From: Phyllosticta citribraziliensis
Taxonomy: Eukaryota
Length of the DNA stretch: 64,000 nt
Assembly: GCF_038025025.1 (NCBI RefSeq)
Contig: NW_027117342.1
Coordinates: 434,001-498,000 of the forward strand
Reading direction: 5' to 3'
In this document: positions 7,882 to 61,690 of the stretch, piece after piece
Numbering within the stretch: position 1 is the stretch's first letter
How the letters are laid out: every line of letters starts with the position of its first letter
Program-made: the position numbers and the translations under genes
Notes under the pieces: generated by a model
Seen by the model: only the letters and a program-made list of their open reading frames with translations
Told to the model about the DNA's origin: nothing
The model's database searches: none

Positions 7882-9818
7882 TCAAGTTCTCCTCCTCTTC
7901 CTCCTCGCCGGCCCACTCATCTCAGCACGCCGCCTCTTCCTGCCCCACCCATGCGCTCTGTACAGGCTTTGCTGGAGAGGCCCAAGAGACTGCGGCTGAA
8001 GACGCACCTTCGCGCCCACCTTCCTCGTAATCGGCTTGCCGTTCGGAGCACGACAGTGGCCCAGTAGAGAGCACCGGACGCAGTCATCAAACTCCTCAGG
8101 CGGCTCCCAGTTATACTCCCTCTTAGCTTCCTCGATCAGCCACAGGTCCTTATGGCACTCATTCATAATCTGCTCCGCAGGGAAAAACATCGTGCGCTTG
8201 AACTGGCGCTGCCGCGGCGGCGCCGCGCCCGGCCGCACCCAGCGCAGGTGGTGCAGCAGCTGGCAGATGGTGCGGCAGTCGATGGCGCCGTGGGCGGCGT
8301 GCGTGACGGCTTCGACGGCGAGCCCGAGGCGCGCGAGGTGCGGGTCGGCGTCGTTGAGGGGCAGCCCGAGCGCGACGGCCCACGCGTTGAGGATCGTGTG
8401 GATGCCGCAGGCGAGCTGGCCGCCGGTCTGCGTCGCGGCGTACCGGACGGCGAAGCGGCCGCGGGGGAGGGGCTGCGTGGTGTTGTCGGTCCACCAGCGC
8501 GTTTTGCGGATGAAGTCGCGGACGTACTGTTGCCTGGGACCAGAGACTTGCGGGGGTGGTGGAGGTTTGCCGGTTTCGGGGTCGATTTGACCGCGCGTTG
8601 GTCTTTTGGGACCCGTGCTGTCGTAGACGTCGACGGTGTAGTCTGTTCCCGACTTGTCCTCCACGACGACCGCCAGCACCGTGTGCCCGTTGTCCTTGGG
8701 ATCTTTCGGGTTGGACATTACGACGGGCAAGATCAGATCACGACGTCGCCGCGCAACGTCGGTCCTTTGATCAGGGACCGCGGGCCTCAAGCCGGAATCC
8801 TCGGGGTAAGTGGCCATGCTGTGCACCGTCGGGCCGTACACGCTGAAAGTGTGGCCCCGACCATTAAGACTAATAGCTTCCGTGACAGCCATGATTGCCA
8901 TTACCACCGCGTCGTCGAAAAGGGGCATGCCCAATCTGACGCAAAAACGCGAAGTGGGCGGTACCGGTCCGGGTGGGACTGGCTGGTGTAGAGCGTCGTA
9001 CTTGGCCTGAGGATATTCCGGTCTGAAGGCGTGGATGCTGCGAAGATAGGATTGCCCCTGCGTGGCTTCGTTCGTGATGTCCGGGATGCAGTGGCTGGTG
9101 GTGGGACATGCCTTACAGGTGCCGCAGTGGTTCTCGACAGGACAGCGGGTGCATCCTTGACCTACACCAGACCCCTCGGGACAGTGGCTGGCGACGTTGC
9201 ATTTGGAGCATCCGGATTGCTCTCCATTTTGCTGCTGGTCTTGAGGAGTAGCTGGCAGGACTTGGAGAACGGCTGGCGGATGATTTTGTGGTTGATTTTG
9301 TGGTTGATTCTGCGGTTGATCCTGTGGTTGATTCTGTGGTTGATCCTGTGGTCGATCTTGTGGAATGTCTTGTGGTTGACCTTGTACTTGGTGGTCTTCT
9401 GCGACATCATGCGGAGTGCCTTGCGTCCCCTCCCCACGACCATCATCATCGCCGCTCTCATCACCCTCCGCCCACGCAATCCCTTGCCAAAGCACGTCAA
9501 CCTCCGCATCGCCCCTCAAATCGACCGTGCTCCCAAAAAGCCCCAGTCCCCAATTCGCATCAAACGCCGGCGCCCTCTTAACAACCTTCAAATGAACCAA
9601 CAGCGCAAGCAGCAGCGCCGGCGTCGCCTGGCCCTGCACCGCCGACGCAACGACCGCCTGCGCGTACTTCTTCTGCTGGTCCGTCCACTTGGCGTCTTTG
9701 GTGGCGAGCTCGAGGCCCAGAGCCAGCGCCGCGGCGATGAAGATGACGGTGAACTTGCGCGCCGTGTCGTCAGAGCGGCGCGCAGCTGTCCAGGTGTAGG
9801 CGATGGCGGGCAGCTGGT

Positions 9819-9852
<34 letters not shown>

Positions 9853-10269
9853 ATCGAACCACGCGCCGCGCTGCAGGAAGCCCGTCACATCCGTCTGGAG
9901 AGCCTGGTACTGTGCCGGCCGCGGCAGCGCGTGCGAGGTGCTGTAAAAGTGAATCTCGACAGTGGCGCCATCGTCGGCGAAGAGCGCGTGGACGAGCAGC
10001 AGCTGCGTCTCGGTGCCTTTGACGTGGCGGGTCCACGGGAACAAGATGTTTTTCTTGCGTCGCCATATGCGGCGGTCGAGATTCGCGTTGTTGGGTTGCT
10101 GGCACGCGTCGATGCGGTAGAAGCTGAACTCGTCGTTGTTGGTGCTGCTTTGGCTGATGGCTTCGGTGACGCTGAGGATGGCCCTGATGAGCTGGTCGTC
10201 TGTTGGTGCTGTCGTGACGGGGGCGGGATTGGGGTATTGGGTTTGTAGATGGCCCAATGGGTTCGACAT
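7882..10269 (-). CDS. Uncharacterised intronless ~795-aa protein with tandem Ulp1/CE-clan-like domains (N copy inactive, C copy intact); paralogue A
   Basis: Uninterrupted ORF from ATG 10269; collinear similarity with the 58823-61240 ORF; C-terminal 'LILPVV..GHTVLA..VYDSTG..TQTGGQLACGIH' pattern; CxxCxxxxHC motifs; basic C-terminus. Confidence 0.85.
9282..9380 (-). repeat. Imperfect 12-bp coding tandem repeat (QPQN/QPQD) in paralogue A
   Basis: Repeated 'gattYtgtggtt'-like units on + encoding QPQDQPQNQPQD... on the minus strand. Confidence 0.85.
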
Positions 10270-10773
10270 GTTGGATTCTGTTTGCTGGAGCTCCTGAGAC
10301 TCGTTTAGTCGTAGACTCGTTTTCCCTGACGTCTTGAAGATGTCGCAAATCAACAACTCTGACAGCTCAAGTCAGCGAGACGTCTCTTGTAAAAGGTGGG
10401 ACGATACCATTTCCCTTTGTTGCCCACGCCCAAGCAATCAAGCAGTCTTGCTTTGTCAACCCGATTCCGGCGGGACGACCATCCATCAAAGCGGTTCGTT
10501 CTTTGTCGGTCAAGACGATGTGATGGTAGCTGCGGCAGTAAACTCGACATTCGACACGGCGGCATTGTGGACGCCGCAGATGCTGTAAAGTGTGAGAATT
10601 AAATCGGCATACATGCGTTCGAATGGAGTGCCATGCAAGAAAATGATCAACAGAATACAGTGGCTAGAATGCACGTCCTCGCCAGATGGATGCTTTCTTG
10701 CTTGCTTGCGCGCTGGGTATACACCACAGTCTTGTCGTCCTGCTCGTCTTCCATCACCGTTCCCCGCACCAAT

Positions 10774-12061: not shown

Positions 12062-15000
12062 TCACCACGCCCGCTTCTTCCCCTTTGCCTCCTTGGCTGG
12101 CGACAGAGCCGGAAACTCGTCAACCTCCTCATAACCCCCAGTAGCCACGCCATCATCTTCATCTCCATCTCCGTTATCCCTCCTGCTCTGCTCCTCCGCC
12201 AGACTCAATTGCAATGCAAACTCCAAATCCTCCGCCTCCTGATCGCGACTGGGTCCTGCGTCTGCCTCTGCCTCGACAGGAGAGCGCCTCGAAGAGCCTG
12301 CTCGAGGCGAAGATTTGCGAGTCTTGACTCTGATGGGGACGTCAAACGCGTCGACGTCGTCACGAGGCAGAGGCAACTCTGCGCTCGCCTCGCCAGCCTC
12401 CAACAGGCTCTGCCGAATCGCCTCGGCCAAATCATCATCCACATCCTCATCATTATGCATGGGCGGACTGCTGGACGGCGTGACGGTAGGAGCAGCCGAT
12501 GACACAGCGCTCGACTCCAGACTGCTGGCCTCGCTCCGTTTCCTCTTGGCCTCATCCGCCAAACTCTCTTCCGAAAGCAGAGCCGCGTACGCCAAAGCTT
12601 GCTCCTCGTCATCGATGAGATCAACGCCAAACCGACCAGCAAGACGCTCGGCCTCGCGCTCCCGTTGAATCTGCTCGCATTCCATCTCGTACTGCTCACG
12701 TTCCATGTAGCTCCTCAACTTGTTGCGGCCCGACGCCGAAAAGCCTCCGCCTCCATTGTGGCCGCGCTCGTGGTGCCGAAGCCTTCGCTTGCTGCTCTTG
12801 TACGCGTCGGCCGCGCTAGAGCTGTAGCTCCAGCAACGGAGATGATTGCCGAGCGAGACAACACCGCGGAGGACAGTGGGGTCGGGGTCGAGGCAAATGG
12901 CTCCGGCAGCATACATGTTGATGCCAACGCCGTGGGTCGAGGCTTGCGCCTGAGCCAGAATACGTCGAGCGCGGGACGAGAAGCGTGAATTGAGTGTCCT
13001 GATAGGAGACATGGTCGAGGCAAGCGGATCCCACGACTGGACGAGCCCATCACTGCCGCCGTGGACGAGGTACAGAGCAGTCATCCCGAGACAGGAAATC
13101 TCTGGCGAGTCTGTATAAATGACGCGGATCGGGTCGACTGTATTAACGCGTCCGGCAGACGGCCCCACCGGCGCACGCATGTCCCAAAGAAAGACACTTC
13201 CGCTCTTGGTGCCAGCCGCCACGAGACGAGCTCGCTGGCCCGGAACATCGGCAGGAGACGCAGGTTGGCTCTTGTCTGACAGAGGCGAAGCAAAGGGCGA
13301 CGACGCCGTCGAAGAGCCCGAAAATCCAAAGATGGGGTCCTCGGATAGAGTCATCGTTGCGTAGGTAGAAATGTCCAGAGTCGTCGCAGCTATCTCAATA
13401 TTCTTGGCGCCAGTAAAGACCAGTTTCGACGTGCGCCACTCCTCGATAGAAGCAGCTCGTTCGGGTGACGGGGCGTCAGACCGGACAGGATCTCCAAACA
13501 GCGAACCAGTCACTTGAGCAGCGTCCTTTTGCGGAAATGCAAGACGTTTGTTCGGGACTTTGAGACGAGTGTAGCGCGTGACAGCCGCCCGAGAGTCCTC
13601 ATCAAGCCCACACTGAATCACGACAACAGCTTCTCCCGCATCATTGCCATCATCGCCGGCAAAGTCGACTTCCAGCCTCCTTCTCATGTCCCAACCAAGA
13701 CAGGCATGGCGATAGTCCTTTGGCTGGAGGCGGAAGTAGGGTTCCATTTCCAGAGTCTCGGCTTTGACCTGTTCTTCACCAAGACACATGCCATCCCACG
13801 ACGACCTGGGCGAATAGCTGGGGTCCGCCGTCTTGGGGTCGCGGTACGGATTGGGCCGAGCGACGCGTCTGCTGGGCTCGACGAGATTCCAAAAGACGGT
13901 GCGGCCGATAGCCCAAGACATGCGCTCCAACGTGGCATCATCCAGGCCGCGAGGAAGCGACCCGGGCGTTTTGGGCAATTTGGACAGGTAAAAGACCTCG
14001 CCCAAAGCGTTGAGAGCAGTGCACCAAACGCGGCCTTGAGAGTAACGCTTGGACGAGTATGATTCGTCGACCGCAAGCGCGATGATGGGCACTCCGGGAC
14101 TGAGGACCCATCGCGCAGTGACTTGACCACGTCCAAACTGCGGCTCTTTCAGAGGATCGTCAGTGCCCAAGCTGTAGCTGCTGACGACTCCAGACGAGGA
14201 GCCGACGAGAATGCCAATCAAGCCGTCAGTCAGTGTCGGAATGGCAGGAGACTTGGCAATCCAGACGGAGCAAACAGCCTCGAGCGACGCAAACAGACGC
14301 GGGATTCCCAGCTCCGGCTCATTCAACTCCATGGGCAAGGACAGAAATCGTCCACGCATCTCCTTGGTAGAGCGATAGTGGATGGAGCCGCCGGGAAAGC
14401 CTTCTCCCAGCACCGATCCGTGAGGCTGGCTGACGTCCATGACATTGGGATTGCCGACGATGTTACCAGCGCCCAATCCCCACATGGATCCGGCATAGCG
14501 CTCGTAGAATTGCGGGAACAGGGGCAAGTCCGTCGAGCCCCATTTGCCCGTCTTGGCCTTAAGCGGGTCGCTAATCGAAGCACTCCCCAAATCATCGGCT
14601 CCGTGGATAAAGGCGGCAGTGCGTTGATTGAGGGCGGTGCCCCAGCTGGCGTGCAGGTGGTTGACGAGGGAATCGAGATTCGAGTCGTACATGGTGAAGG
14701 CCTGAGGCGACTGGACTTGAGCGCGCGGATTCGCCGGCAGAGCCATGGGCTTGCCTCGACTGAGCGATCGCAGCAGGCGAGTGCGCAGAATGTACTCGCT
14801 CCGCCAGGACGCCAGAGCCGTGAGCCGGGCAAAGGCGCGGCGCTCGGTGCGCACGTCATCTTCATCGTCCCCCAAGGAGTCTGCCGTGTGGACGAGCGAC
14901 TGGGCGCCGAGGAAGAAGCGCGCAAACGCGCTCCGCCACGCGTGCGGCGTCGTGACCAGCGCGTGGAAGCGATGGCACACGAGCGACACGGCCGACAGGT

Positions 15001-15436
15001 CGGTCGGCGACAGATGCGATATGGCGTGCGTCAGGATCTCTACAGCAGGGTCAGCCTTGCGTCAGTCGCTCACAAACGCGAGCAACCCACCATTCGGAAG
15101 CTTCGTGATGGCACAGTTGTTGTCGCCAGACTTGGGGCTCGTCTTGATGACTTCAAAGAGCGGGCCGGAAGCTCGCCTCTGAGGCGTCGTCGCCAGGGCG
15201 TTTGCGTACTCGTCGATTCGGTTGCGTAGCGGCGGCGGCGGCGGCGGGCTGCGCTTCAATCGCGGGCTCTTGACTGCACCTGCGCCGGCATCGCCTCCCA
15301 CAGCGTCGCGAGAGCGCTGGGGAGTGAGCGGCTGGTCTGGCGCGTCGAGTCCATGCTGGGGCGAGGCGGGATCGATCTGGGGTTGGGTCGCGGGGGCGGG
15401 CACGTTTGGAGAGACGTCGGAGGGCGCTGGGTGCAT
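12062..15436 (-). CDS. F-box protein with WD40-like repeats and C-terminal UIMs (Pof10/Ufo1-like)
   Basis: F-box 'ITKLPNE/ILTHAISHLSPTDLSAVSLVCHRFHALV' across one intron; WD-like 'VFLWDMR', 'GGSDGLVQSWDP'; UIM-like 'EQALAYAALLSEES', 'DLAEAIRQSLLEA', 'DLEFALQLSLAEEQS'. Confidence 0.85.
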
Positions 15437-57834: not shown

Positions 57835-58422
57835 TCAGCCAAACCATTTCCCCAGAATTCCTGCACCGCCTCCTCCACCTTGTCCGCGACGCTTGGCTTC
57901 GCTGATGATCCACTGCCGCAAAAAGTCGCGATTTTTCATCTTGTCCACCGCCGTCACTCGCGTTTCAAACTGCGCTTCTTGTCGGTCAAACGCCAGCAGT
58001 GTCGGCATCGAGTTGATCTGTCGTTCCTTCAGCAACAAACCCCTGCGATTGATTCTTGTACTGACGCGATATGTTATGGGCAAGTCTCCAATCGTCACCG
58101 CGTCCACCTCGACCTCTGCGTATCCGACTCCGCCCTGCTCTTCACCGACGCCCTCTTTGCCCACCAGCTCCTCGAGTATCGGCTTGACGGCCTGGCATGA
58201 TGGACACCACGATGCAGTCCAGAGCGTGAGGAGTGGCCGGCGCGTGCTGGCGCTGAGGAGGAGCAGGTTGGCAAACTCGTCTGGATTGCGCACCGAGGTG
58301 TAGATTCGATTGGCGTTGTTGGCGGCGGAGCGGGGCGCGCTGCTGGAGAAATTGCAGCGAGGGCGGGAGAGGAGGAAGCGGAGGATAGGGCGAGCGGAGT
58401 GAGAGGGCCGTGCGAACATCAT
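57835..58422 (-). CDS. Thioredoxin-like protein with probable mitochondrial presequence, 2 exons
   Basis: Arg/Ser-rich N-terminus; 'LWTASWCPSC' CxxC; cis-Pro loop 'INSMPTLLAF'. Confidence 0.85.
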   Translation of the reverse strand: MMFARPSHSARPILRFLLSRPRCNFSSSAPRSAANNANRIYTSVRNPDEFANLLLLSASTRRPLLTLWTASWCPSCQAVKPILEELVGKEGVGEEQGGVGYAEVEVDAVTIGDLPITYRVSTRINRRGLLLKERQINSMPTLLAFDRQEAQFETRVTAVDKMKNRDFLRQWIISEAKRRGQGGGGGAGILGKWFG

Positions 58423-58822: not shown

Positions 58823-61240
58823 TCAGGTCCTCCTCTTCTTTCTTTGCTGCACGGGTACAATCTCCACGCCGTTTCTTCTCTTCCTGCCCTGCCCATCCCT
58901 CCTATGAAGTGAATATACTGGCGCAGTGCAATGCTGTGGGGTTTTGCAAGTATTGCAATAGTTGCACCCATACTCCAACATTTCATAGTCCTTATTGTCT
59001 TGGTTTTCCTTGTTCCATAAGGAAATATGATGGTCTCGCAATTCGCATTGGATGGCAACGGGGCACGTCGTCTTGAAAATACGGTCTCCTGGCGGCTGAC
59101 TACCTGGCTGGATCCAATCCAAAAAGTGGAGGAATTGGCAGATGGTCTCGCAATCGACTTCTCCATAGCAGGCATGCGTAATGATCTCAATGGCTCGGTG
59201 GAGACGCTTTAGGTTCGGTTTTTGATTCAACGGCAAGTTTAGAGCTGCCGCCCATCCGTTCAGGATCGAATGAATCCCGCATACCCACCCTTGATTTTGA
59301 TGCGGGACTGTCGGCCAGGTAAATCTTCCCTGTGGAATAGGATTGTCGTCGTTTGCCCACCATCTCGTTCTTTGCAGAAAGTTTTGGACATATTGTTGGA
59401 CTCGTGGAGGCTCCAAAAACGTACCCGATGAGTCGAAGACCTGGGCACTCCAGGTGCCTTCTGATTTCTCGTGTCTTATATAAGCCACAACGATGTGTCC
59501 TTTTTTGCCTGTGCTGACTTCCAGTTCTTCGTCTGATTCCGGTTCTTCATTATTCATAACAATTGGCAATACAACGTCCTTTCTTCTGCGGACGATGTCG
59601 AATCTTGCATCTAATTCCGAGGCGTTGTCAGAGGGCGCTGGCCTATCGAACCCGAATTTGGCATTGTCAAGCTGTAATAGGCTGTACAAACTGAATTGTT
59701 TGCCTCTCCCATTAAGACTTATGGCTTCTGTGACAGCTAGGGTGGCCCGTATGACATCGTCTTCGTCCAGATATATCCCGTCCCGGGTACAAAACCATTC
59801 GTGCAAAGGCCCAGTAAGCTTGCCTGAATGGTCTTTTGTCGCTTTTTTGAACACCTTTGTATTTTGGAACTGTTGCCTGGATTTGTGAATGCTCCGGTTA
59901 TACAAGTCTCCTCTGCTGGCGTTTGGTAAAACTGTTGGAACGCAGTGTGGGAACACAGGACACCCTGAGAAACAGTGTTTGTCCACAGGACAGTTGATAC
60001 AGCTTGTGTCGTTGCTGTCGGAATTTTTCCCGCAGTGACCAGACAAAGCGCAATTGATGCATTGCGGTTGCTGTCCGTTCTGCTGTCCGTTCTGCTGTCC
60101 GTTCTGCTGTCCGTTCTGCTGTCCGTTCTGCTGTCCGTTCTGCTGTCCGTTCTGCTGTCCATTCTCTTGCCCATTCGGCTGTGCATTCTCCTGTCCATTC
60201 TGCTGTCCAGTGGGCGGTCCGTCCTGTCGATCATCCTGTGTTCGATCCTGCGTATTCTGCGTCTGCTGCGTCTCCTGTGGTGTATTTCCCGAAGTGTCCA
60301 GTAGCGGATCTGGCAACTCGGTTCGTTCACCCTCTTGGCCCGTCTGTCCCCGCTCACCTTCCCCATCCTGCGTGCCGCCATCATTGTTTCCCACAGATGG
60401 AGAGATCAACGCCCTCACAGTCGTGTAATGCGCATCAAACGCGGCACCGCTCAAATTGACCGTCCGAGCAAAGAGTCCCGCCTGTGGCCATTGGGGGTCA
60501 AAGTCGCCAGTCACAACCTTGGCCTTGACAAGCACAGCGAAAAGGACCGAAGGCGTTGCTCCCCCGCTGGCCGCATCTATGATGGCGGCGCTCACGTACT
60601 GTTTGTCCTTTTCAATGTTCTTTTGGCTGCCCAAGTTGGGCAACTTGGCAGCGATTGGCAGTTGCAGCGCGATGGCCCAGGCGATGAGGAAGACGAGGTA
60701 GCGGGGGTTGTTGAGGGGGTCTCGAACCAAATCGATCCATGTTGCGAAGGGAGCTGGTGGGGGGTTGAGATTGGATCCAAACCAGTTTCTGTAGTGCAGG
60801 AACCGCATGACGAGCTGTGTCTCCGTATTTTTCTCACTGTCTGTGATAAGTAGCGAGGAAACATCGTAAAACGTAAGCGCAACGCTTTGTTGTGTGGGTG
60901 TAGCATTGCTTCCTCCCTGTTGGGTGCTGTTTTGAAGGCGAACGTGAACGAGTATAAGCTCATTCTGGCCCTGAACGGGCTGGCCCTGAGCGGTCAATAT
61001 CCATGGGAGCAGGACTGGCTCTCCGCTCCTGAGGATGGGATCGATTTGCGAATTGCTGCCCAGGCCAGTCCATAAGTTGCTAGGGTCAAGGCCGAATTGA
61101 TTGTTCGGGTCGCTCTGGCTGATGGCTTCCGTGACGCTGAGTATGGCTCGACGGATCAAGTCCTCGTTTGGCTCCGTAGCTGGCACTAGATTTGGATATT
61201 GTCTCTTCAGAACTTTCGTTTCTTCCCTCCAGTTGACCAT
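58823..61240 (-). CDS. Uncharacterised intronless ~805-aa protein with tandem Ulp1/CE-clan-like domains; paralogue B
   Basis: Uninterrupted ORF from ATG 61240; collinear with 7882-10269; 'YLDEDDVIRA', 'DVVLPIV', 'GHIVVAYI', 'VFDSSG', 'VPHQNQGWVCGIH'. Confidence 0.85.
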   Translation of the reverse strand: MVNWREETKVLKRQYPNLVPATEPNEDLIRRAILSVTEAISQSDPNNQFGLDPSNLWTGLGSNSQIDPILRSGEPVLLPWILTAQGQPVQGQNELILVHVRLQNSTQQGGSNATPTQQSVALTFYDVSSLLITDSEKNTETQLVMRFLHYRNWFGSNLNPPPAPFATWIDLVRDPLNNPRYLVFLIAWAIALQLPIAAKLPNLGSQKNIEKDKQYVSAAIIDAASGGATPSVLFAVLVKAKVVTGDFDPQWPQAGLFARTVNLSGAAFDAHYTTVRALISPSVGNNDGGTQDGEGERGQTGQEGERTELPDPLLDTSGNTPQETQQTQNTQDRTQDDRQDGPPTGQQNGQENAQPNGQENGQQNGQQNGQQNGQQNGQQNGQQNGQQNGQQPQCINCALSGHCGKNSDSNDTSCINCPVDKHCFSGCPVFPHCVPTVLPNASRGDLYNRSIHKSRQQFQNTKVFKKATKDHSGKLTGPLHEWFCTRDGIYLDEDDVIRATLAVTEAISLNGRGKQFSLYSLLQLDNAKFGFDRPAPSDNASELDARFDIVRRRKDVVLPIVMNNEEPESDEELEVSTGKKGHIVVAYIRHEKSEGTWSAQVFDSSGTFLEPPRVQQYVQNFLQRTRWWANDDNPIPQGRFTWPTVPHQNQGWVCGIHSILNGWAAALNLPLNQKPNLKRLHRAIEIITHACYGEVDCETICQFLHFLDWIQPGSQPPGDRIFKTTCPVAIQCELRDHHISLWNKENQDNKDYEMLEYGCNYCNTCKTPQHCTAPVYSLHRRDGQGRKRRNGVEIVPVQQRKKRRT
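60071..60154 (-). repeat. Perfect 12-bp tandem repeat x7 (CTGTCCGTTCTG on +) encoding QQNG in paralogue B
   Basis: Seven exact copies counted, followed by degenerate copies. Confidence 0.95.
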
Positions 61241-61690
61241 CTTGAAGTCCACTTGGCCAGTATTTTGTCCGGTAGGAAGAGAAACAAAAATGAAAGGTCA
61301 GCGACCGATATCAGGTTTAAACAACGTGTCCCGCTGGTTCTCTTTGTTAGTCTCAGAACGAGCACACATCTGTACCCGCTTTGATCAAAAGCATCACCCC
61401 GCCAGAAAAGGACAACAAAGGGCATCCTGCCGTCTTTATCAACCAACACAATCCAATCCCAGGTGCTATAGTAGTAGCTCCTGGTCGCACCGCGACGTCT
61501 AGCTGTCGACGCAGATCGGCTCTGAATACACATACGGACCAAATCTCGAATACCCAATTACAACGCTCAAACAGTGAGAAACAAAGCATTCGTTTTGATG
61601 TGGCGAACGCCCTCAATGCCAGATACGCTCAATGCCCAAAAACCGGCAGGTGCAAATGTTTTGGGAAAACTCCACCGATGCCGAATCCAA

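What the first reader, a model, noticed from the sequence alone, without database searches (positions are those of the whole stretch)
9480..10215. Internal duplication: the N-terminal domain is a catalytically dead copy of the protease domain
Seen in A: 'DDQLIRAILSVTEAISQS..FSFY' vs 'DDAVVMAIMAVTEAISLN..FSVY'; 'RRKKNILFPW' vs 'RRRRDLILPV'; 'TQLLLVH..VEIHFYST' vs 'GHTVLAV..VDVYDST'; 'FLQRGAWF' vs 'FIRKTRWW'; 'FTVIFIAAALALGLEL' vs 'CGIHTILNAWAVALGLPL'; 'AVQGQATPALLLALL' vs 'AAHGAIDCRTICQLL'; 'FGST' vs 'FKRT'. The same holds in B (about 60420-61190). The catalytic His and Cys positions are lost in both N copies, so duplication and inactivation predate the A/B split. Inference: a pseudoenzyme domain acting as Ubl-binding module, autoinhibitor or decoy.
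Basis: partly seen in the sequence, partly recalled or inferred. Interest (0 to 1): 0.72.

Follow-up and report, generated by a model that had tools for sequence, protein, structure and literature searches.

The report
Fungal dead-plus-live tandem Ulp1-like protease
This fungal gene encodes a protein with two copies of a SUMO/ubiquitin-protease-like domain, only the second of which can still cut, and it belongs to an apparently unstudied fungal family with one to seven such copies in a row, the disabled ones usually first.

Summary
Observation confirmed. Gene A (7882-10269, minus strand) and paralogue B (58823-61240) each hold two clan-CE (Ulp1/SENP-fold) domains. Profile alignment of the halves gives probability 98.7% over 224 columns. 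Both halves of a confident model match CE proteases. The C copy keeps His563/Asp584/Gln648/Cys655. The N copy has lost His, Gln and Cys; B's keeps the Asp. The dead copy is conserved, not decaying.
The larger result: 154 relatives carry 347 copies, 1-7 per protein: 205 intact, 127 dead, 15 partial. In 67 of 79 mixed proteins all dead copies precede all live ones, though these come from about three lineages and two small clades are reversed. B lies beside the same thioredoxin-like gene as the Pleosporales multi-copy gene.
Best reading: a nuclear ubiquitin/SUMO-family deconjugase whose dead copy is a binding module. Substrate and binding are untested. Ten literature searches found no description. 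The scan had not noted this family on other DNA.

The parts
7882..10269 (-). Gene A: single open frame, 795 aa from the first Met (residue 35 of P0001)
   Evidence: no joint inside the frame in same-organism contigs X1 and X2 (their RNA status is only a guess)
9454..10269 (-). A, N-terminal folded module: catalytically dead clan-CE domain (residues 35-306). Gln123, Ser144, Arg199 and Arg205 sit at the His, Asp, Gln and Cys columns
   Evidence: (pLDDT mostly 80-97); structural matches XopD 2oix Z 10.2, SseL 5haf Z 9.5, ChlaDUB1 5hag Z 8.3
9214..9453 (-). A, low-complexity Gln/Pro/Asp/Asn linker, predicted disordered
   Evidence: pLDDT under 50
9088..9210 (-). A, three repeats of a Cys-x2-Cys-x4-His-Cys spacing (residues 388, 407, 419); probable small zinc-binding module (inferred)
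   Evidence: 12 of 171 proteins have the spacing; invariant Cys/His columns; low pLDDT
8125..8928 (-). A, C-terminal clan-CE protease domain with intact His563 (8683-8685), Asp584 (8620-8622), Gln648 (8428-8430) and Cys655 (8407-8409)
   Evidence: structural matches 6dg4 Z 13.9, SENP1 Z 13.1-13.4, Ulp1 Z 12.1-12.7; profile hit to 6dg4 E 0.002
8053..8082 (-). A, fourth Cys/His motif, after the live domain (residue 764)
7885..7959 (-). A, basic C-terminal tail (12 Lys+Arg in the last 25 residues), NLS-like (inferred)
58823..61240 (-). Gene B, paralogue of A (32% identical) with the same architecture
60413..61180 (-). B, dead N-terminal CE domain (His, Gln and Cys lost; Asp145 kept)
58988..59785 (-). 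B, intact C-terminal CE domain (His601, Asp622, Gln667, Cys673)
57898..58359 (-). Thioredoxin-like gene directly downstream of B; synteny marker shared with Pleosporales relatives
   Evidence: the C-terminal thioredoxin parts of gene models P0155 and P0169 match it at 48% and 46%, E 5e-33 and 1e-31; Pfam thioredoxin

Best explanation
A and B are probably nuclear clan-CE cysteine isopeptidases that remove a ubiquitin-family modifier (ubiquitin, SUMO or NEDD8; which one is unknown). Only the C-terminal domain can cut. The N-terminal copy is a folded, conserved pseudoprotease that most likely works as a non-catalytic docking site. It would hold another modifier unit of a chain, or of a multiply modified substrate, and so give the live domain avidity and chain or substrate selectivity. 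Shown here: the fold, the intact versus lost catalytic residues, conservation of the dead copy, and the family architecture. Inferred: protease activity, nuclear location, the modifier, and binding by the dead copy.
For: Both halves have the CE fold, and the best matches are all ubiquitin/SUMO/NEDD8 proteases. The dead copy is kept: mean identity among seven Phyllosticta-type proteins is 34% for N copies against 47% for C copies. In contigs of a related organism the N region differs by 82 of 939 letters, against 74 of 609 and 93 of 903 in stretches over the C domain, and the one listed gap inside the N domain is in frame (24 nt). Family-wide, 50 of 127 dead copies keep His and Asp and carry Ser or Ala at the Cys column. 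That resembles the engineered Ulp1 C580S mutant, which traps SUMO and SUMO2 chains (PMC3216068: abstract and passages). In one subfamily, 5 of 12 members scanned carry C-terminal UBA domains (4 above Pfam's cut-off), which ties the family to ubiquitin binding. The acidic residue at the column tentatively matched to Ulp1 Asp451 is kept in 6 of 7 Phyllosticta-type N copies, A and B included. Variable copy number (1-7) suits independent binding modules.
Against: A's N copy has lost all four catalytic residues, so it is not a simple Cys-to-Ser trap. Over all dead copies the Asp451-like column is acidic in only 38 of 106, against 129 of 200 live copies, and that column was matched through a very weak alignment. 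Only 2 of 205 live copies have Trp after the catalytic His; in Ulp1/SENP that Trp clamps the di-glycine end (recalled), so the substrate may not be a standard modifier. A and B have no UBA domain and no Pfam hit. The model's pTM of 0.65, with about 165 low-confidence residues, suggests a fixed N-C arrangement (my inference; no error map was given), which favours the structural rival.
Confidence: 0.45

Rival explanations
1. The dead copy packs on the live domain as a structural, allosteric or autoinhibitory partner, as separase's pseudo-protease domain does beside its active protease domain.
For: pTM 0.65 for a two-domain model with a disordered linker hints at a fixed relative position (inference). 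Dead-before-live order in 67 of 79 mixed proteins (within-protein permutations: mean 27.6, maximum 42 of 5000) points to a positional constraint. The separase precedent of a pseudo-protease and an active protease sub-domain is stated in a passage of 10.1101/069906.
Against: 47 of 154 relatives show one copy only, 44 of them intact (some may be partial gene calls), so the live domain does not need a dead partner in general. An 80-residue disordered linker separates the copies in A and B but is absent in P0005. The order is reversed in P0013, P0014, P0070, P0008 and P0085.
Confidence: 0.25
2. The dead copy is a scaffold for a partner unrelated to ubiquitin-family modifiers, such as a chromatin or nuclear protein that targets the enzyme.
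For: All catalytic residues are gone in A. The N copies share their own invariant residues, for example His128 at the far end of the strand that carries the catalytic His in live copies. Basic tail and Cys/His motifs.
Against: No partner was identified, and the many Ser/Ala-substituted copies that keep His and Asp are better explained by a preserved modifier-binding cleft.
Confidence: 0.15
3. The N copy is a relic under weak constraint, kept only because it must fold to keep the protein intact.
For: N copies diverge faster than C copies (34% against 47%). The family gains and loses copies often.
Against: It is retained in both paralogues and in all seven two-domain homologues examined, with a confidently predicted full fold. 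In Pleosporales the first-position dead copies group together (0.97, 99.5); the second-position ones do so (0.93) but weakly (66.8). DNA divergence over the N domain is no higher than over the C domain.
Confidence: 0.1
4. The live domain is not a modifier protease but a processing protease for another substrate or a YopJ-like acetyltransferase, and the dead copy serves that reaction.
For: The di-glycine-clamping Trp after the His is missing (2 of 205). YopJ-family structures (HopZ1a, PopP2, AvrA) appear at Z 6.1-6.8.
Against: Ulp/SENP matches score about twice as high (Z 12-14). The acid of the triad is Asp in 292 of 347 copies, not the Glu of YopJ enzymes (recalled). UBA domains occur in relatives.
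Confidence: 0.05

Closest known systems
Ulp1/SENP SUMO proteases and DEN1/NEDP1 (MEROPS C48, clan CE; Pfam PF02902; closest structure 6dg4, Chaetomium Ulp1-like protease)
   Same: Fold (Z 13.9, 219 residues aligned, rmsd 4.6); His-Asp-Gln-Cys order in the C domain; relatives P0015, P0021 and P0087 pass the PF02902 cut-off.
   Different: A and B have no Pfam hit and about 15% identity. No Trp after the catalytic His. Known members have one catalytic domain (recalled), whereas this family has 1-7 copies, many dead. The genome has 11 other PF02902 matches; the eight loci fetched score at most 21 bits with this family's profile, against 107-184 for A and B.
Bacterial CE-clan deubiquitinases (XopD, NopD, SseL, ChlaDUB1, ElaD)
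   Same: Fold; they give the best whole-model matches that fall on the N half (Z 8.3-10.2). The Atlas lists ElaD for both halves (a lead only).
   Different: Those are bacterial proteins, mostly injected effectors, with one CE domain (recalled). A and B are chromosomal fungal genes with no signal-like stretch and an NLS-like tail.
Separase (pseudo-protease domain plus active protease domain; clan CD)
   Same: A dead protease domain paired with a live one in a single chain (10.1101/069906, passage); dead copy first (recalled).
   Different: Caspase fold, not CE; one fixed pair rather than variable arrays.
Engineered Ulp1(C580S) substrate trap; pseudo-deubiquitinases such as Rpn8
   Same: A catalytically dead isopeptidase fold used for binding or allostery (PMC3216068 abstract and passages; PMC10211241 passages).
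   Different: C580S is a laboratory mutant; Rpn8 has the JAMM/MPN fold and is a separate subunit (recalled). Here the dead CE copies are natural and in the same chain.

Membership tests
Clan CE cysteine proteases (C domain) | CE fold | tested here: met
   The top 29 matches among 48,161 chains are CE-fold proteins, best Z 13.9; the next row is Z 5.0
Clan CE cysteine proteases (C domain) | Catalytic His, Asp, oxyanion Gln and Cys in that order | tested here: met
   His563, Asp584, Gln648, Cys655 in A; His601, Asp622, Gln667, Cys673 in B
Ulp1/SENP family C48 | Pfam PF02902 above the gathering score | tested here: not met
   No match for A, B or their isolated domains; 3 of 25 relatives scanned pass the cut-off
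Ulp1/SENP family C48 | Trp directly after the catalytic His, clamping the di-glycine end (feature recalled) | tested here: not met
   Trp in 2 of 205 live copies; Thr in A, Ile in B
Ulp1/SENP family C48 | SUMO-binding surface and the Asp451 salt-bridge residue | tested here: inconclusive
   The structural match covers 6dg4 residues 7-254; the tentative column is acidic in both halves of A and B, but it was matched through a very weak alignment
Ulp1/SENP family C48 | Cleaves SUMO, NEDD8 or ubiquitin after the di-glycine end | not testable with these tools
   Needs an activity assay
Pseudoenzyme (N domain) | Homologous to an enzyme domain and keeps its fold | tested here: met
   hhalign probability 98.7%; same secondary-structure order; CE matches at model residues 14-264. 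The N domain was not folded or searched alone.
Pseudoenzyme (N domain) | Catalytic residues lost, with no migrated substitute | tested here: met
   His and Cys absent in 7 of 7 N copies; no invariant Cys within the N domain of five aligned homologues
Pseudoenzyme (N domain) | A demonstrated non-catalytic function | not testable with these tools
   Conservation implies function but does not name it
YopJ-type acetyltransferases (C55) | Glu in the triad and an IP6-binding regulatory region (features recalled) | tested here: not met
   Asp in 292 of 347 copies, Glu in 5; matches only at Z 6.1-6.8; the IP6 region was not examined separately
Secreted fungal effector | N-terminal signal peptide | tested here: not met
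   Maximum 12-residue hydropathy in the first 36 residues is 0.51 (A) and 0.19 (B); a proxy, not SignalP

The most novel reading that the evidence does not exclude
This is an undescribed fungal family of clan-CE 'poly-domain' isopeptidases, named members all Dothideomycetes, in which tandem copies of the protease domain were repeatedly turned into natural substrate traps. Dead N-terminal copies read a ubiquitin or SUMO chain, and one or two live C-terminal copies cut it. The dead-then-live layout arose separately in at least two lineages, and copy number (2 in A and B, 4 in most Pleosporales, up to 7) sets the chain length or type recognised.
Probability: 0.3. Interest if true: 0.8.

Novelty: new variant of a known kind. 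Interest (0 to 1): 0.6.

Why it matters
Clan-CE proteases (Ulp1, SENPs, DEN1, bacterial effectors) are known as single-catalytic-domain enzymes (recalled), and my ten literature searches found no natural CE pseudoprotease or tandem CE array. A conserved fungal gene with ordered dead and live copies gives a ready test of how a protease fold becomes a chain reader. It adds an unannotated branch of ubiquitin/SUMO signalling in a class that includes many plant-associated fungi. It may also supply natural modifier-chain binders comparable to the engineered C580S trap.

Tried and rejected
Single-sequence structure prediction failed (pLDDT 36) and was replaced by an alignment-based model. A complex prediction of the N module against the C part gave no verdict: score 0.00, the alignment was not used, no controls were folded. 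It is evidence neither way. Pfam finds nothing in A or B. A single-sequence PDB search gave only chance hits. A profile search of the word-indexed protein set returned one already-known protein. Expression: no RNA holder listed; the four runs laid are contigs of guessed type, and X1 may be this DNA's source. dN/dS could not be computed: only 40 of 228 substitutions were shown, and 10 indels were not shown. The cluster-member look-up for taxa could not be made, so most unnamed relatives, including the UBA-bearing subfamily and P0013/P0014/P0029/P0034, have no taxon here. Origin of the duplication: the free tree separates the N and C copies, but holding them together is not rejected (p-AU 0.344), and long branches of dead copies may attract each other. 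Transposon cargo was considered because Ulp1 domains ride in fungal transposons (notes). It was rejected: the neighbours scanned are housekeeping-type genes, only two family genes were found in the genome, and B shares a neighbour with Pleosporales relatives. A migrated catalytic triad using His128 was rejected because the N domain has no conserved Cys. Literature: searches found no description of the family (seen as listings with abstract starts); two were for analogues. PMC12295320 has no mention of Ulp, SUMO, C48 or SENP. PMC8146201 mentions other Ulp1 genes, on an accessory chromosome (passages). Supplements were not read, and subscription journals and bioRxiv supplements were not searchable, so a prior description cannot be excluded.

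Full report
1. The locus. The finding lies in an uninterrupted minus-strand frame, 7882-10371 (P0001, 829 codons; first Met at residue 35), called A. A paralogue B lies at 58823-61297 (P0002), 32% identical over its length. These were the only two family genes found in the 31 Mb genome with four different protein queries (lower bounds). The closest named relatives are Phyllosticta proteins, 35-47% identical over the C part, so the window is probably from that genus (inference). Neighbours are ordinary genes: a molybdopterin-synthesis gene and a NUDIX gene flank A; a thioredoxin-like gene and a MATE transporter lie near B.

2. The duplication is real. BLASTP of the halves gives E 2e-4 over 64 residues in A and E 5e-7 over 208 columns in B. 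Smith-Waterman scores of 74 and 96 were reached by 0 of 200 shuffles each, and 19 of 25 cross-pairs among five homologues by none. The N and C profiles align with probability 98.7%, E 1.6e-16, over 224 columns. A model from a 60-sequence alignment (mean pLDDT 78.6, pTM 0.65) shows two confident domains with the same order of elements, joined by a disordered linker. The C half matches the Chaetomium Ulp1-like protease 6dg4 (Z 13.9, rmsd 4.6, 219 aligned), SENP1/2, Ulp1 and DEN1. Matches that fall on the N half are XopD (Z 10.2, rmsd 3.4, 155 aligned), SseL (Z 9.5) and ChlaDUB1 (Z 8.3). I did not fold the N domain alone or superpose the halves directly.

3. One copy is dead, one intact. The C copy of A has His563, Asp584, Gln648 and Cys655. 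The same columns in the N copy hold Gln123, Ser144, Arg199 and Arg205. B's N copy has lost His, Gln and Cys but keeps Asp145. All seven two-domain Phyllosticta-type proteins lack His and Cys in the N copy. A Cys-x2-Cys-x4-His-Cys spacing occurs three times after the N domain and once after the C domain in A. It was found in only 12 of 171 proteins, which suggests the duplicated unit included it.

4. The dead copy is conserved. Among the seven proteins, N copies average 34% identity and C copies 47%; N versus C within one protein is 17-25%. In contigs from a related organism, 82 of 939 letters differ over 9555-10493 (this includes about 220 nt upstream of the Met), against 74 of 609 and 93 of 903 over stretches covering the C domain. 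The one listed gap inside the N domain is 24 nt, in frame, and much of the low-complexity linker is not covered. The output was too truncated for dN/dS.

5. It belongs to a larger family. A profile search of 1.84 billion representatives found 410 proteins at E up to 0.001, and the best 150 were listed. In 154 proteins (those 150 plus earlier ones), an iterated domain profile found 347 copies: 47 proteins with one, 58 with two, 24 with three, 18 with four, 4 with five, 1 with six and 2 with seven. By His and Cys columns, 205 copies are intact, 127 dead and 15 partial. Some records are partial or fused gene calls, so counts are approximate. Of 107 multi-copy proteins, 79 mix live and dead copies: the first copy is dead in 71, the last live in 68, and all dead precede all live in 67 (permutation mean 27.6, maximum 42). 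These are not 79 independent events. The tree of 327 domains (20 of 347 left out as partial or gappy) shows about three lineages with this order: the Phyllosticta type, a Pleosporales gene typically dead-dead-live-live (Alternaria, Parastagonospora, Plenodomus, Massarina and others), and a subfamily of unknown taxon with UBA domains in 5 of 12 members scanned. Two small clades are reversed, live first (P0013, P0014, P0070; P0008, P0085). The copies of the UBA subfamily group together (99.5) and so do the four Pleosporales positions (86.5), which suggests separate internal expansions, though concerted evolution could mimic this. For the Phyllosticta pair the origin is open (p-AU 0.344). Two Pleosporales gene models end in a thioredoxin part that matches the gene directly downstream of B (48% and 46%). 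I read these as mis-joined models, which would place B at the ancestral locus and make A the moved duplicate (inference from two models).

6. Mechanism. Shown: fold, catalytic status, conservation, architecture. Inferred: a nuclear isopeptidase (basic tail, no signal-like stretch) with the dead copy as a modifier-binding module (0.45). Support: 50 of 127 dead copies keep His and Asp with Ser or Ala at the Cys column, like the Ulp1 C580S trap that binds SUMO and SUMO2 chains (PMC3216068, abstract and passages), and some relatives carry UBA domains. Against: A's N copy has lost all four residues; the tentative Asp451-like column is acidic in only 38 of 106 dead copies; and the Trp that follows the catalytic His in Ulp1/SENP (recalled) occurs in 2 of 205 live copies, so the substrate is uncertain. 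Rivals: a separase-like structural or autoinhibitory partner (0.25), a scaffold for another protein (0.15), a relic (0.10), other chemistry (0.05).

7. Comparison and novelty. It works like a C48 Ulp/SENP protease by fold and triad but fails two membership features: the Pfam cut-off and the His-Trp pair. I therefore file it as a clan-CE protease of an unnamed family, not as a Ulp1 or DEN1 orthologue. The genome has 11 other PF02902 matches; the eight loci fetched are distant from this family, and I did not assign which are Ulp1, Ulp2 or Den1. Dead-plus-live protease pairs are known in another clan (separase; passage of 10.1101/069906), and pseudo-deubiquitinases are known (PMC10211241, passages). 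Searches found no account of tandem or dead CE domains in fungi; the library lacks most subscription papers. Verdict: a real feature and a new variant of a known kind, with the mechanism untested; interest 0.6.

Noticed in passing
P0013, P0014, P0070, P0090 (unnamed relatives): A clade with the opposite order, live copies first and dead copies last, up to six or more copies; P0090 has two dead copies only. P0013, P0014 and P0090 also carry the Cys/His spacing.
   Followed up: partly
P0071, P0072, P0129, P0146, P0154: Two-copy subfamily with C-terminal UBA domains, several in P0071; a direct hint of ubiquitin binding. Taxon unknown.
   Followed up: partly
G000:C4:2248452-2447050 (L006-L009 and one further match): Five PF02902 matches cluster within 200 kb on contig 4, and two matches with the same score and an internal stop lie on C5 and C13: a separate expansion of Ulp1-like genes.
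   Followed up: partly
window 12062-15061 (-): A 999-codon frame with an N-terminal F-box, two genes from A; a possible ubiquitin-pathway neighbour, link untested.
   Followed up: no
window 60076-60160 (-): Perfect 12-nt tandem repeats in B's linker, and similar ones in A (about 9290-9360); linker length varies widely among homologues.
   Followed up: no
window 10003-9988 (-), His128 of A: A His five residues after the lost catalytic His column is present in all seven N copies examined; a candidate residue for the dead domain's new role.
   Followed up: partly
P0155, P0169, P0170: Public gene models join the protease array to a downstream thioredoxin or MFS transporter; probably annotation read-through, useful as synteny markers.
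   Followed up: partly
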